Below are positions 48,001-64,000 of a stretch of DNA of 64,000 nucleotides, in pieces (the stretch's first letter is position 1; the number at the start of each line of letters is the position of its first letter). Location of the stretch: contig OY740783.1 in the NCBI GenBank assembly GCA_963514005.1, positions 23,002,001 through 23,066,000 of the forward strand, given 5' to 3'. Position numbers: made by a program. Origin of the DNA: Raja brachyura (taxonomy: Eukaryota).

Positions 48001-51000
48001 TCAACGCAACCGGATCACCCGGAGAAAACCCATGCGATCACAGGGAGAATGCACAAACTCCACACAGACAGCTTAACTACTCAGAACAGGAAGCAGTTGG
48101 GAGTTAACCACACTGGTGGATCCAAAGTCACACGTGGCCAAATTGAGTAATGATGGCAGCCTCCGATCCTTGACGAATATTAATGGATTGGATGGGTATT
48201 TGTGGCAATTCTGTAGTTTTATGGGCATCATTACTAAGACCCAGAAATGCTACCTGACATGTTGAGTTACTCCAGCACTTTGTGTCCATTTTTGAAAGTA
48301 GAATTAATTTTGATGGGCCTGCTTCTCTTCCTAGGTTCCCATGTGTGTCACTGATATGCATATTTTTTAATGTATTTACAGAGCTTGTACCAGAAGCTGG
48401 AAAAACTCCAACAGAATCACTTTTATTGCCACTCAATCAATCGACCGAAGATGTGACGCATCCATTGGGCTCCAAGATTCACGTTGTGCACATTCACTTT
48501 GATGTCAGAGAGGAGGAGGGTGGTGGAATCATTGGCAGTGGAGAATCTGACTTTACCAAATTTCTCTTCCCGCAAGTTCCCACAGCGGCTCCAGTGCAAG
48601 ATGCGCACCCATCGCTCAGCTTTATTAATGGGAAGACGCGGATAGAATTTGAGCCGCCTTATACTCGTGGTGAGGAAGCCAGGGGAGACCAAGTAGAAAG
48701 GGTATCTCCCAGTATAAGTGCAATACCAGACATGGATGTTATAGAAAAAGATGATGAAAGCAAGGAGGACTTCTTAACGATTGAGAGTAGAACTGCTGAA
48801 AGTCAGGAACCAGGAATCTCCACTGAGAGATCAAAAACCGTTTCCAGTGTTAAAAGTCCATCCGAAAGACCCACGGTTACAGAAAGGCAGATAAGAATCC
48901 ATTCTAGTGTTACTGGAGGACATTTGGACATCTTACCCAGCACGCAAGATGCTCAAAAGACACCCACACAGATTTTCACCACAGAATCAACGGAGGGAAA
49001 ACCTCACCTCTTTGGGATTGTTACAACTGCATCAGAAGACGTTACTTCGCCAAAAACTGAAACAGTGACCGGGACTGAAGACATCATTTCACACGAAACA
49101 ATTGATAAAGAAACGGTTGAGGCTTCTGTTGAAGGGTTTGAGCTGGTTTCTACTACAATTCCAGGTGCCCCTCATAAAACAACTACCAAACCAAGGACGC
49201 CGGAGCTATATCCAACAACCTTTGAAAAAGATGTAAAACAGGAAACAGCAGCACCGATAGAAATGTACATAGAAACCTTGTCCACATCTGGACCTGATGC
49301 GAGTCGTGGTGGAGAAATGCTTAGTCCTTCACCGGTTACAAAGTTAGTTGTCCCTCCCAGTATTATTGTACCATCTGCAACTGAAGAAAGTCGAGCCACG
49401 ATCCCAGAAAGAAAGCGAGAACAAACTAAAGCTGTCACAGAATCATATGACGTCAGTGAGGGCAAAACATTAAAACCAGAAGAAAGTACAGAGGAACTAA
49501 AACGTGAAGTAGGTTCTATTACACCAAGCAAATTATCAATAAGCAGAGCTGAAATTGTAACCGACAAACCTGAATGGGACTCTTCTAAAGTAACAAAACC
49601 TGTGGAGAAAAAAATCCAAGACATTGAGAAACTTAAAGAAGCCACAAGCATAGCCACGCCATTTACAGAGTTAGGTTCAGGTGAACCACTGAGTAAGGAT
49701 ACAGTTAGTTTATCATTCACAGAGGTGCCCACAGTGATCGTTGAAAAGGAAACCTTACAGACGTTTGTTTCAGTGACGACAACAGCAGTCGACGAGAGAA
49801 TTCCCGATGATGCCCTCACAACGACTTTTGATAAGCAAACTCACGCAGTTAGATCGCAAACACCATCAGTGATATCTGAGAGTAAAACCAGCCCTGATAA
49901 AATGGTTGTGGAATCAACTGTGAAACATCCAACAATTGAGGTATTGACAGAGAAATCTCCAGTCAAAGAAGTATCTTCTCGTGATTTTGAGAGTTCTGGT
50001 GCAGGAATGTTTACTGTCAGACCCACAGGACAGTTCAGTCCTGATATTTCCACACTTGAGGTGAGCAGTCATGAGTCTCCAGTGACTAGCAGAACATTAT
50101 TGGATGAGGTAACCCTTCACAGTGCTGTTCCAGCAGTACACGATCAAGATATTGGAATAGCCGCATCTGGATTACCTGAGGCACACACCCAGAGGGAAGA
50201 TTTGCTAGTAAAAGTCCACACAGAGGTGGAAGACAAGTCTGCTGCTACAGTTGTGGTTAGCGACAAGGAAACCGGATATACATTTGATTCAGTGACAAGA
50301 GAAATAGATGATGGAGAACGCCCTATCACTGCTTCCACAGTAATTGAAGAATTCACGTCAGAAGGACCATCAGTCATCACTGAGCTCAAAACCACCCTAG
50401 AGAAAAAGGTTACAGCATCAACTTTGAAACCTCCTGCAATTGGCGAAACCAGACTAATGGAAAAAGTTTCAGTCAAACCAACCCCTTCTCCAGAAATTGT
50501 AAGTTCTCGTGAAAAAATGGTTACATCCAAACAAATGGTTCAATTTGGGCCTGACGATTCCACATTAGAAATGAGCTCTACACCTTTACCAGTGACCACG
50601 AAAACATTAGTTGATGGGAAAGCTCTCCACAGTACAGCTGCAGTTACACGTGAGAGTGAGGAGGAATCTTCTGGTTCTGGTTTGCTGGAGGCACACACAG
50701 TGAGGGATGGTTTGCTGGTCAAAGTCCACACACAGCTGGCAGAAAAGTCTACATCAACAGTCATCGTTGATCATGAGGAAACCAGATATACATCAGTTTC
50801 AGTCACCAGTGAAGTAGAAGATGCAGCTCCTCATGATACTGTTACACCTGTAATTGTAAAAACAACCCAAGAAACCTCATCGGCAGCACCGTCAGTGATC
50901 ACGGAGATCAAAACAACACCAAAGAAAGTGGTTACAGCCTCCACTATGAAGCCTCCATCAATTGACGAATCAGGAATAACGGAGAAAGTTGCAGATGAAC

Positions 51001-63000: not shown

Positions 63001-64000
63001 CTCCTCATGATGCAGTTACACCAGTCATTGGAAAAGCTTCATCGAAAATACCATCAGTCATCACTGAGATCAAAACCATCACAGGGAAAGTGTTTATGGC
63101 GTCAACTGTGAAACCCTTTGCAATTTTTGAATCGGAAATAACTGAGAAAGTTCCAGACAAACTGCAGCCTTCTCCAGAATTTGAGAGTTCTGGTGAAGAA
63201 ACATTCAGTATTGGACACACTGGCCGCTTTGAACCTGATGTTTCCAAACTGGAGATGAGCAGCCAAGAAACTCCAGTGACAAGCAGAACTTTATTGGATG
63301 AGGAAGCTCTTCACAGTGCTGTTCCAGCAGCAACTGATCAAGAGACTGGACTAGTCACATCTGGATTACCTGACACACACACACGCACTGATGGTTTGAT
63401 GCAGACACAGGTGGAAGACAGAACGGCGGCAACAGATGTGACAGGTGAGAAAGAAACCAGGTATACATTTGATTCTGTGACAAAAGAACTAGTCGAAGGA
63501 GAACGCCCTGTCACTGCTACCCCAGTAATTAAAACAACGTTACAAGAATCCATCTCAGAAGCACCATTGGTGATCACTGAGATCAAAACCATCCCAGAGA
63601 AAGTGGTTGTCACATCAACTATGAAATCACCAGCAACTGTGGAAACACAGATATCAGAGAAAGTTACAGTCAAACTACCTCCATCTATAGAATTTGAGAG
63701 TTCTGGTGAAGAGCTGATTACTTCCAAACAAATTGCACAATTTGGAACTGATATTTCCACCACAGAAATAAGCTCTGCCCTGTTACCAGTTACCAGTAAA
63801 ACTCCAGTGGATGCAAAAATTCCCCAGAGCACTGTTACTGTTACACGTGAGAGTGAGGAGGAAATTTCTGGGTCTGGCTCGTCGGAGATACACACAGAGT
63901 GGGATCGTTTGCTGGTTAAAGTGCACACACAAACAACTGACAAGTCTGCAGCTACAGTTGTGATTGGCGAGAAGGAAACCAGATACACATTAGTTCCAGT

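What the first reader, a model, noticed from the sequence alone, without database searches (positions are those of the whole stretch)
48382..64000. Giant (>=15.6 kb) single coding exon: a roughly three-fold-expanded versican GAG-beta domain
Seen: one frame begins at a canonical acceptor, is stop-free wherever I translated it, is still in phase at the window end, and has no closed ORF in the track (~5,200 codons). Known: the human versican GAG-beta exon is ~5.3 kb (~1,750 aa) and is not built of long tandem repeats. Inference: this lineage encodes a far larger versican, with an exon approaching the largest known vertebrate coding exons. Pipelines may fragment or mask it.
Basis: partly seen in the sequence, partly recalled or inferred. 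Interest (0 to 1): 0.88.

Follow-up and report, generated by a model that had tools for sequence, protein, structure and literature searches.

The report
Giant tandem-repeat versican exon in a skate
This is the large sugar-chain-carrying exon of the matrix proteoglycan versican, swollen in this ray-like fish to more than 15.6 kb by about 25 tandem copies of a 172-residue module that sharks and rays share but bony vertebrates lack.

Summary
One + frame is stop-free from 48258 to the window end (15,743 nt). The other two + frames carry 284 and 370 stops over the same stretch. An AG acceptor at 48380-81 opens a phase-1 exon at 48382, and homology to relatives starts exactly there.

The exon head matches, at E 1e-190 to 1e-42, residues ~1350-1560 of seven full-length elasmobranch "versican core protein-like" proteins. 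It also carries the versican GAG-beta island around the ADAMTS cleavage bond, 293 nt into the exon against about 278 nt in mouse exon 8.

The size comes from an array of ~172-aa modules paired into 344-aa units, 90-99% identical over the last ten units. The array looks coding: dN/dS is ~0.6, indels are in frame, and no stops occur where 5.6 would be expected.

The same module occurs only in elasmobranch versicans, at 4-21 profile hits per protein against 31 here. So giant versicans already sit in public annotation. This window holds the largest and most homogenised array seen. I found no paper describing it. Transcription as one exon and the assembled copy number remain untested.

The parts
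1..48381 (+). Upstream flank, read as the 3' part of the intron before the giant exon (at least 48.4 kb). It contains a 182-N gap at 28630-28811, which was left as it is.
   Evidence: tblastn of seven full-length relatives gave no hit below 48300 (0 of 50 HSPs). The longest + stop-free stretch here is 513 nt. No Rfam family matched.
48360..48381 (+). Pyrimidine-rich tract and AG splice acceptor.
   Evidence: Read directly from the sequence. Homology to relatives starts right after it.
48382..64000 (+). Versican GAG-beta exon (orthologue of exon 8). It is phase 1 and open at the window end, so it is at least 15,619 nt with 5,205 full codons.
48384..49691 (+). Non-repeated head of the exon (436 aa).
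   Evidence: The module profile starts matching at residue 437. The head aligns with residues ~1350-1910 of batoid relatives at E 1e-102 to 1e-123.
48621..48713 (+). Conserved versican island FINGK...GEE|ARGDQVERVSPS. The predicted ADAMTS cleavage bond is Glu98-Ala99 (codons 48675-48680), followed by an RGD motif at 48681-48689.
   Evidence: phmmer and hmmsearch hit turtle, tenrec and paddlefish versicans at the colinear place. The mouse site is from PMC8233476.
49692..52922 (+). Older, diverged part of the module array. Its modules are 48-84% identical to the later units and some are truncated.
52923..63179 (+). Ten homogenised 344-aa A+B double units (U4-U13), 1005-1032 nt each and 90-99% identical in protein. 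U5-U6 and U7-U8 form a duplicated two-unit block.
63180..64000 (+). An eleventh homogenised double unit, cut by the window end.

Best explanation
The region is the 5' 15.6 kb of the GAG-beta exon (exon 8 equivalent) of the versican orthologue of a batoid fish, most like a skate.

The encoded polypeptide is Cys-free, rich in Thr, Ser, Glu and Val, and predicted to be disordered. It serves as a scaffold for chondroitin-sulfate chains and probably O-glycans. After a 436-aa head that keeps the ADAMTS cleavage island, it consists of ~172-aa modules. Each module carries acid-flanked Ser-Gly sites.

In batoids two module types (A and B) pair into a 344-aa unit. Unequal crossing-over and/or gene conversion has amplified and homogenised that unit in this lineage: 31 profile hits here, 25 of them full length, against 4-21 hits in annotated relatives. 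If the array ended at the window edge and the ~900-1,070-aa tail seen in relatives followed, the complete exon would be at least ~18.3 kb.

Shown: the open frame, the repeat anatomy, orthology of the head, restriction of the module to elasmobranchs, and signs of coding constraint. Inferred: transcription as one exon, glycosaminoglycan attachment, ADAMTS cleavage, the amplification mechanism and the full exon size.
For: - Open frame and acceptor.
- Named relatives. Their domain make-up is V-set x1, Xlink x2, EGF x2, Lectin_C and Sushi.
- Colinear conserved island and cleavage-bond distance.
- G1 and G3 trees.
- Repeat anatomy: 27 FE[ST]SG anchors at 142-174 and 344 residue spacing, and 31 profile hits over residues 437-5205. 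Of these, 25 are of ~165-175 residues by my count of that list.
- Coding constraint in the young units: median dN/dS 0.61 over 45 pairs (range 0.35-1.93). For older units against U6 it is 0.46-0.52.
- Stops and indels: at least 136 substitution events, 5.6 stops expected and none seen (P = 0.004). The three indels among U4-U13 are 9, 9 and 18 nt.
- Concerted evolution: units are more alike within a species than between species in all four species compared. The window shows 92.7% within against 77.8% to Rhinoraja.
- Scaffold properties: 80 Ser-Gly dipeptides (77 in the array, 41 with acidic flanks) and 0 Cys.
- Structure: AlphaFold2 on the module gave mean pLDDT 41, pTM 0.10 and no secondary structure. 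No Pfam domain and no PDB relative.
Against: - No RNA evidence was available, so internal splicing of the array cannot be excluded.
- No G1, GAG-alpha or G3 exon lies in the window. Gene identity therefore rests on one exon plus its relatives.
- Constraint on the youngest copies is weak. Some pairs have dN/dS above 1 (U6-U8 1.93, U10-U11 1.61, U5-U7 1.23), though these rest on 7-27 differences.
- The island is detected by profile in only 13 of 83 named bony-vertebrate versicans at domain E <= 0.01, although the short motif is present in 76 of 83.
- Neurocan and brevican were not in the trees.
- The copy number comes from one assembly, and units 94-99% identical at 1 kb spacing are the kind of sequence that assemblers miscount.
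- The AlphaFold alignment had only 11 rows.
- No skate full-length model was found for comparison.
Confidence: 0.85

Rival explanations
1. The gene and exon are as described, but the copy number in the window is an assembly artefact (over-expansion or collapse of a near-identical 1-kb array). The true exon would then be markedly shorter or longer.
For: Units U10-U13 are 94-99% identical in nucleotides at lag 1032. U6 and U8 are 99% identical in protein. The window also holds an assembly gap elsewhere, at 28630-28811.
Against: No two units are identical. U4-U13 differ at 128 of 1032 aligned columns and by three separate in-frame indels. They show a nested pattern (U5-U6 resembling U7-U8) that is expected from real unequal exchange. 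Relatives from independent assemblies have 4-21 module hits.
Confidence: 0.12
2. The open frame is real, but the array is not one constitutive exon. Parts of it would be removed by internal splicing or used alternatively, so the mature protein would be much smaller.
For: No RNA data were available here. GAG-alpha and GAG-beta are alternatively spliced as whole exons in mammals (PMC8233476, passages). Models of the region in other species are inconsistent: a 1,505-aa fragment in Rhinoraja and a 3,726-aa 'mucin-17-like' model in Heterodontus.
Against: There are 0 stops in 5,205 codons against 284-370 in the other + frames. Indels are in frame, dN/dS is below 1 overall, and stops are missing where 5.6 would be expected. 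At least eleven relatives' models read 7-21 module hits through without interruption.
Confidence: 0.1
3. The exon belongs to a lineage-specific versican-like paralogue, or to another lectican or a mucin, rather than to the VCAN orthologue.
For: NCBI names the relatives 'versican core protein-like', 'versican a', 'uncharacterized' or 'mucin-17-like' rather than VCAN. Synteny could not be examined, and neurocan and brevican were not sampled. S+T make up 26.6% of residues, which is mucin-like.
Against: The exon carries the versican-specific island at the colinear position, present in 76 of 83 versicans and 0 of 25 aggrecans. The relatives have two, not four, link modules. They sit as sister to bony-vertebrate versicans in both the G1 and G3 trees, while a ray aggrecan sits with aggrecans. 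No species gave more than one named full-length protein (the unnamed, shark-like P0124 could not be placed). No mucin domains were found.
Confidence: 0.05

Closest known systems
Mammalian versican (VCAN) exon 8, the GAG-beta domain
   Same: It is a single large phase-1 exon after GAG-alpha. It is Cys-free and bears Ser-Gly sites. It shares the conserved island with the Glu-Ala ADAMTS bond about 280-290 nt from the exon start. In full-length relatives it is flanked by G1 (Ig plus two link modules) and G3 (two EGF, lectin, CCP).
   Different: The exon here has at least 5,206 codons, whereas whole tetrapod V1-type isoforms are 2,380-2,510 aa. It is built from ~172-aa tandem modules, which a search of 1.84 billion representatives found in no protein named as coming from a bony vertebrate. 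The four tetrapod versicans tested show 0-1 internal repeat pairs. An RGD follows the cleavage bond.
Annotated elasmobranch 'versican core protein-like' proteins (for example Scyliorhinus canicula 6,895 aa, Chiloscyllium plagiosum 5,956 aa, Mobula hypostoma 5,202 aa, Pristis pectinata 4,708 aa)
   Same: They share the same head, the same module and the same layout of head (363-435 aa), array and tail (912-1,066 aa). Stingrays and the skate Rhinoraja also share the A/B alternation.
   Different: The window has more modules: 31 hits, 25 of them full length, against at most 21 hits and 20 full length. Its units are far more alike (92.7% mean) than those of Rhinoraja (80%), Pristis (77%) or Hypanus (66%). 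Its GAG-beta already exceeds the largest relative (5,056 aa) before the array ends.
Aggrecan chondroitin-sulfate exon with short tandem repeats (recalled from general knowledge, not from a call)
   Same: It is a lectican whose GAG-bearing exon is a tandem array that can vary in copy number, giving a high density of GAG chains.
   Different: Aggrecan has a G2 domain with two further link modules, whereas the relatives here have only two link modules. Aggrecans lack the FINGK...E|A island (0 of 25) and form a separate clade. The repeat unit here is 172/344 aa rather than tens of residues.
Mucin central exons with variable tandem repeats (recalled from general knowledge)
   Same: They are very large single exons encoding Ser/Thr-rich, disordered tandem repeats that evolve in concert. 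One relative is even named 'mucin-17-like' by its source.
   Different: No mucin-type flanking domains were found. The flanks in relatives are lectican G1 and G3. The repeats carry acid-flanked Ser-Gly sites typical of chondroitin-sulfate attachment.

Membership tests
Versican (VCAN), GAG-beta exon | A large phase-1 exon that starts where GAG-alpha ends, about 1,000 residues after G1. | tested here: met
   AG acceptor and phase. The exon start aligns with residues 1347-1558 of ten relatives, whose preceding residues are conserved among themselves and absent from the window.
Versican (VCAN), GAG-beta exon | A conserved island with the ADAMTS Glu-Ala cleavage bond near the 5' end of the exon. 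| tested here: met
   FINGK at exon residue 80 and Glu98-Ala99, 293 nt into the exon. The mouse site lies 269 nt (+9) into exon 8 (PMC8233476). Profile hits in turtle, tenrec and paddlefish versicans fall at colinear positions. The motif is in 76 of 83 versicans and 0 of 25 aggrecans. Cleavage itself was not tested.
Versican (VCAN), GAG-beta exon | A Cys-free, disordered core with acid-flanked Ser-Gly chondroitin-sulfate attachment sites. | tested here: met
   0 Cys, 80 Ser-Gly dipeptides, 41 of them acid-flanked. pLDDT 41. No Pfam or PDB match. Actual glycanation was not tested.
Versican (VCAN), whole gene | G1 (Ig V-set plus exactly two link modules) upstream and G3 (two EGF, C-type lectin, CCP) downstream in the same gene. 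| not testable with these tools
   None of these exons lies in the window, and no vertebrate genome collection was on hand. In the relatives P0004 and P0005 the architecture is met.
Versican (VCAN), whole gene | Groups with versicans rather than with other lecticans. | tested here: inconclusive
   In NJ trees of G1 and G3, the six elasmobranch relatives are sister to seven bony-vertebrate versicans, and a ray aggrecan groups with aggrecans. Neurocan and brevican were not sampled, and there are no support values.
Versican (VCAN), whole gene | Conserved synteny with HAPLN1. | not testable with these tools
   The window holds no other gene, and no flanking sequence was available.
Aggrecan (ACAN) | A G2 domain, giving four link modules in all. 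| tested here: not met
   Two Xlink stretches in P0004 and P0005. The aggrecans form a separate clade.
Gel-forming or membrane mucins | A PTS tandem-repeat exon flanked by VWD/CysD or SEA domains. | tested here: not met
   The repeats are S/T-rich (26.6%) but only 6.7% Pro. The flanking domains in relatives are lectican domains. No mucin family matched in Pfam.

The most novel reading that the evidence does not exclude
Elasmobranchs turned versican into a mucin- or aggrecan-like variable-number proteoglycan. A ~172-aa chondroitin-sulfate module arose in their common ancestor. It gained a second type (B) in batoids. It now evolves in concert with species-specific copy numbers, from 4 to at least 25. 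Skates would hold the extreme: a single coding exon of 18 kb or more, among the largest in vertebrates, possibly polymorphic in length within populations, and giving the tissue matrix several times more GAG chains per versican molecule.
Probability: 0.45. Interest if true: 0.55.

Novelty: new variant of a known kind. Interest (0 to 1): 0.42.

Why it matters
Versican is a well-studied matrix proteoglycan whose GAG-beta domain is treated as a unique, non-repetitive sequence. Here, and in other sharks and rays, that domain is a fast-evolving tandem array that doubles or triples the core protein while keeping the ADAMTS cleavage island.

This gives a natural series of versicans with 4 to at least 25 GAG modules. 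Such a series could be used to ask how GAG load scales with matrix properties. It is also a clear vertebrate case of concerted evolution inside a coding exon outside the mucins.

Practically, the array is a trap for annotation. Models in other species are fragmented or misnamed ('uncharacterized protein', 'mucin-17-like'). No full-length skate model turned up in the length ranges searched.

Tried and rejected
- **Tandem Repeats Finder** found nothing because the period exceeds its 500-nt limit. I replaced it with autocorrelation and anchor motifs.
- **Domain and structure searches** of head and modules gave nothing significant: Pfam matched nothing above its cut-offs, PDB sequences gave none, and the ESM Atlas gave no usable hit.
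- **Rfam** on the whole window gave 0 matches.
- **AlphaFold2** gave a low-confidence, structureless model, so I made no fold search.
- **phmmer with default filters** lost the shark relatives because of biased composition (5 targets). I repeated it with filters off (18 targets).
- **Whole-protein self-BLAST** returns only the diagonal. I replaced it with an all-against-all comparison of 150-aa fragments.
- **The 'longer' protein search** covered only 306-2,000 aa. With covering 2,862-9,109 aa, relatives of 2,000-2,862 aa or above 9,109 aa were reached only through the 50%-identity representatives.
- **Ten upstream stop-free stretches** scanned in Pfam gave one weak family, PF09004 at 13020-13382. 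I rejected the idea that any upstream ORF is a versican exon.
- **The 687-696-nt minus-strand ORFs** inside each unit are rejected as genes. They recur only because the unit recurs, and they lie antisense to a constrained frame.
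Full report
**1. Observation**

The + strand has one frame without a stop from 48258 to the last base of the window (15,743 nt). The next longest stop-free + stretch anywhere in the window is 513 nt. Over 48382-64000 this frame has 0 stops. The other two + frames have 284 and 370, and the three - frames have 63, 348 and 257.

A pyrimidine-rich tract and an AG at 48380-48381 precede the exon. The exon then starts at 48382 with two bases that complete a split codon (phase 1). The first whole codon is at 48384, and 5,205 codons follow.

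The 41 open codons upstream of the AG are not coding. In an alignment with ten relatives, similarity begins exactly at the residues after the AG. The relatives' preceding residues are conserved among themselves and have no counterpart in the window. The frame is still open at base 64000, so the donor site lies outside the window.

**2. Anatomy**

The exon has a 436-aa non-repeated head followed by an array.

- The motif FE[ST]SG recurs 27 times, spaced 142-174 residues apart except for one 344-residue gap.
- A profile built from 25 window modules matches 31 times over residues 437-5205.
- By my count of that list, 25 matches are full modules of ~165-175 residues. The rest are pieces of truncated early modules, plus the last module, which is cut by the window end.
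- Two module types alternate. The A type begins PEFESSGEETF and the B type begins VEFESSGEELITSKQ, and B carries an extra SGSG. Together they form a 344-aa (1,032-nt) double unit.
- Autocorrelation peaks at 1032 and 1023 nt, then at 2046 nt.
- The ten complete double units from 52923 to 63179 are 90-99% identical in protein. U6 and U8 are 99% identical and U5 and U7 are 95% identical, which points to duplication of a two-unit block.
- The earlier units are 48-84% identical to the later ones.

The polypeptide is 14.9% Thr, 11.7% Ser, 12.1% Glu, 10.3% Val and 6.7% Pro, with no Cys and one N-glycosylation sequon. It has 80 Ser-Gly dipeptides, 77 of them in the array and 41 with acidic flanks.

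Pfam finds no domain and the PDB sequences hold no relative. AlphaFold2 on an 11-row module alignment gives mean pLDDT 41, pTM 0.10 and no secondary structure. This fits an intrinsically disordered carrier of glycan chains, although the alignment was shallow.

**3. Is the array coding?**

- Among U4-U13 the median dN/dS is 0.61 over 45 pairs, with a range of 0.35-1.93. The values above 1 come from the most similar pairs, which have 7-27 differences. For older units against U6 it is 0.46-0.52.
- U4-U13 differ at 128 of 1,032 aligned columns, which implies at least 136 substitution events.
- Of all single-base changes, 4.1% would create an in-frame stop. That predicts 5.6 stops, and none is seen (P = 0.004).
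- The indels among these units are 9, 9 and 18 nt. The 21-nt block listed is an insertion in the early unit U2, not a difference among U4-U13.
- Relatives' gene models read through their arrays.

Constraint is weak, as expected for a disordered scaffold, but it is present.

**4. Gene identity**

Only one exon of the gene lies in the window. I searched it alone, and I built and searched no joined spliced model.

*Named relatives.* Exon residues 1-560 found seven proteins of 2,862-9,109 aa. All are elasmobranch and all carry V-set, Xlink, EGF and Lectin_C domains, five of them Sushi as well.

| Species | Length (aa) |
|---|---|
| Hypanus sabinus | 5,123 |
| Mobula hypostoma | 5,202 |
| Hemitrygon akajei | 5,136 |
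| Pristis pectinata | 4,708 |
| Narcine bancroftii | 4,084 |
| Scyliorhinus canicula | 6,895 |
| Heptranchias perlo | 3,732 |

Six are named 'versican core protein-like' and one 'uncharacterized protein'. A Pfam scan of two of them gives one V-set, two Xlink, two EGF, one Lectin_C and one Sushi domain. That is a lectican without the G2 domain of aggrecan.

*Position in the protein.* tblastn of the seven against the window gave 50 HSPs, none below 48300. No other exon of the gene is therefore in the window, and the preceding intron is at least 48.4 kb. The exon start aligns with residues ~1,350-1,560 of the relatives, after G1 and a stretch of about 1,000 residues the size of GAG-alpha.

*More relatives.* A search with the full-length Heptranchias protein added Mustelus (5,587 aa), Chiloscyllium plagiosum ('versican a', 5,956 aa), C. 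punctatum (4,722 aa) and a Heterodontus model named 'mucin-17-like' (3,726 aa, no Pfam domain). Among the 120 listed proteins it also gave 83 named non-elasmobranch versican-type proteins and 25 aggrecans.

*The conserved island.* The window head, searched with filters off against the named set, hits turtle versicans. In V1-type isoforms the hits fall at residues 415-475, and in V0-type isoforms at 1,555-1,619. A profile of 13 elasmobranch heads hits 13 of the 83 versican-type proteins at domain E <= 0.01, 11 of them with whole-protein E <= 0.001. It hits none of the 25 aggrecans, and always with profile positions ~70-127.

The alignment shows a shared island of the form P-x-L-x-F-I-N-G-K, then 12-14 residues, then E-E-A-R-x-x-Q-x-E-x-V-x-P-S. 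The short pattern [FY][IL]NGK...E-A[RK] occurs in 76 of 83 versican-type proteins and in 0 of 25 aggrecans.

In mouse and human V1 numbering, the ADAMTS bond Glu441-Ala442 lies in GAG-beta. The mutated codons E438-E441 lie 269 nt from the 5' end of exon 8 (PMC8233476, passages read). In the window the corresponding Glu98 codon starts at 48675, 293 nt from the exon start.

*Trees.* Neighbour-joining trees of G1 (320 columns) and G3 (325 columns) place the six elasmobranch proteins as sister to seven bony-vertebrate versicans. A ray aggrecan groups with three other aggrecans. Neurocan and brevican were not sampled, and there are no support values.

Taken together, the exon is the GAG-beta exon of the versican orthologue. 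HAPLN1 synteny and the flanking exons could not be examined.

**5. Distribution of the module**

*Searches.* An 11-row module alignment held six window modules and one module each from five relatives. I searched it against proteins of 306-2,000 aa. It found a 1,505-aa 'uncharacterized protein' of the skate Rhinoraja longicauda and a partial whale-shark versican-like protein.

The Rhinoraja model starts at a Met inside a module, holds eight full modules, ends in unrelated residues, and is 77.6% identical to the window array. It is a fragment of the same exon in another skate. It also shows that the window comes from a different species.

HMMER over 1.84 billion representatives with the same profile found only 10 proteins at E <= 0.001. 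Seven are the named elasmobranch proteins above. Three are unnamed (P0124-P0126), because the look-up of their names could not be made. By comparison:

- P0124 is a shark-like protein that begins at the GAG-beta head and ends in G3.
- P0125 is a batoid-like fragment.
- P0126 is a weak hit (E 3e-6) that looks unrelated.

No bony-vertebrate or chimaera protein was found.

*Lengths.* The table gives the GAG-beta-equivalent length (head start to first EGF) and the number of module hits in the eleven relatives that reach G3.

| Species | GAG-beta length (aa) | Module hits |
|---|---|---|
| Heptranchias | 1,872 | 4 |
| Narcine | 2,434 | 7 |
| Pristis | 2,942 | 9 |
| C. punctatum | 3,115 | 12 |
| Hypanus | 3,462 | 13 |
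| Hemitrygon | 3,482 | 13 |
| Mobula | 3,546 | 14 |
| Mustelus | 3,798 | 16 |
| C. plagiosum | 4,307 | 18 |
| P0124 | 4,523 | 20 |
| Scyliorhinus | 5,056 | 21 |

Heads are 363-435 aa and tails after the array are 912-1,066 aa.

The window already has at least 5,206 codons and 31 hits, with the array unfinished. If a tail like those of the relatives follows, the exon is at least ~6,100 codons (~18.3 kb). This is an inference.

*Concerted evolution.* Units are more alike within than between species in all four species compared.

| Species | Mean identity within species | Mean identity to other species |
|---|---|---|
| Window | 92.7% | 77.8% to Rhinoraja |
| Rhinoraja | 80.3% | – |
| Pristis | 77.4% | 51-54% |
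| Hypanus | 66.2% | 46-51% |

This is the signature of concerted evolution or repeated lineage-specific amplification.

*A and B types.* The A/B alternation is shared with Rhinoraja (ABABABAB) and the three stingrays (AABABABABA...). Sawfish and electric ray modules score mostly as B, and shark modules as A or undecided. The module is therefore elasmobranch-wide, and the B type looks like a batoid addition.

*Internal repeats elsewhere.* I cut the central regions into 150-aa fragments and compared them all against all.

- Gopherus and Amia versicans show 1 matching pair each.
- Loxodonta, Rhinatrema and Tiliqua show 0.
- Sturgeon (Huso) and paddlefish (Polyodon) show 27 and 9 pairs, at residues 961-2,160 and 961-1,710. 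In paddlefish this is upstream of its GAG-beta island at residue 2,103.
- A cyprinid (Sinocyclocheilus) shows 3 pairs at residues 961-1,410.
- The elasmobranchs show 3-276 pairs.

The human protein was not examined.

**6. How it most likely works**

The head keeps the site where ADAMTS proteases release the G1-containing fragment in mammals. The modules multiply the number of acid-flanked Ser-Gly sites and Ser/Thr-rich stretches per molecule. A longer array should therefore carry more chondroitin-sulfate and O-glycan chains and occupy a larger hydrated volume.

The array grows and shrinks by unequal exchange between 1-kb double units, and it is kept in frame by selection. Cleavage, glycanation, expression and the exchange mechanism are all inferred and not shown.

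**7. Literature**

- Four searches (versican with elasmobranch; lectican, evolution, GAG-beta and shark; versican, tandem repeat and cartilaginous fish; versican, skate and Leucoraja) returned no listed title or abstract on repeat expansion in elasmobranch versican. I saw search listings only.
- The lamprey lectican preprint (10.1101/2020.09.24.311837, passages only) uses elephant-shark lectican loci for synteny. In the passages shown it says nothing on GAG-region repeats.
- My statements on the largest vertebrate exons, on aggrecan repeat polymorphism and on mucin repeat exons are recalled, not taken from a call.

**8. What stayed unchecked**

- RNA evidence, read-level support for the copy number, flanking exons and synteny.
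- Names of P0124-P0126.
- Relatives of 2,000-2,862 aa or above 9,109 aa, except through the 50%-identity representatives.
- No vertebrate genome collection was available. The genome collection on hand holds bacteria and archaea only and I did not use it.
- The 182-N gap at 28630-28811 was left as it is.
- I take the window for a batoid fish, not for human sequence.

**9. Verdict**

The feature is a real, constrained, very large versican GAG-beta exon whose size comes from a tandem module array.

It is not unique to this lineage. The same architecture sits, undescribed as far as my searches show, in public gene models of at least eleven sharks and rays. This window holds the largest and most homogenised array seen.

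Noticed in passing
window 48681-48689 (exon residues 100-102): An RGD tripeptide follows directly after the predicted ADAMTS Glu-Ala bond (GEE|ARGDQ). Pristis, Hypanus, Heptranchias and paddlefish versican b have it too. Scyliorhinus has AKGGQ, turtles have ARSDQ and tenrec has ARRGQ. Cleavage would place RGD two residues from the new N-terminus. Whether it binds integrins is unknown.
   Followed up: partly
window 53084-61972, minus strand: Open reading frames of 687-696 nt recur once per 1-kb unit on the antisense strand. One minus frame has only 63 stops in 15.6 kb. I read this as a by-product of the repeated, compositionally skewed sense frame and not as genes.
   Followed up: partly
window 8694-9029 and 25127-25408 (+); 13020-13382 (+); 42587-42850 (+): Two stop-free stretches in the intron share a near-identical protein-like segment, so they are copies of one interspersed repeat. 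13020-13382 matches PF09004 (E 9e-10). From recall, these and 42587-42850 look like decayed retroelement ORF tails. The other scanned stretches had no Pfam match.
   Followed up: partly
window 28541-29040, around the N gap at 28630-28811: The assembly gap is flanked on its 3' side by sequence that translates as Ser/Pro/Leu-rich low complexity in several frames. This suggests that a simple repeat stopped the assembler. The gap was not filled.
   Followed up: no
window 24001-26000: The strongest GC skew in the window is here (+0.30). It coincides with a G-rich stretch whose translation at 25339-25719 is Gly/Glu/Arg-rich.
   Followed up: no
P0008 (Rhinoraja longicauda) and P0013 (Heterodontus francisci): Public gene models of this same exon in other species are fragmented or misnamed. 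One is a 1,505-aa 'uncharacterized protein' that starts at a Met inside a module. The other is a 3,726-aa 'mucin-17-like' protein without G1 or G3 domains.
   Followed up: yes
P0021 (Huso huso) residues 961-2160; P0018 (Polyodon spathula) residues 961-1710: Sturgeon and paddlefish versicans have their own internal repeats (27 and 9 matching fragment pairs). In paddlefish these lie upstream of the GAG-beta island at residue 2,103. This points to an independent repeat expansion, apparently on the GAG-alpha side.
   Followed up: partly
P0126 (611 aa, unnamed): This is a ~97-residue perfect tandem repeat protein that weakly matches module positions 10-48 (E 3e-6). It looks like a chance or out-of-frame match.
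   Followed up: no
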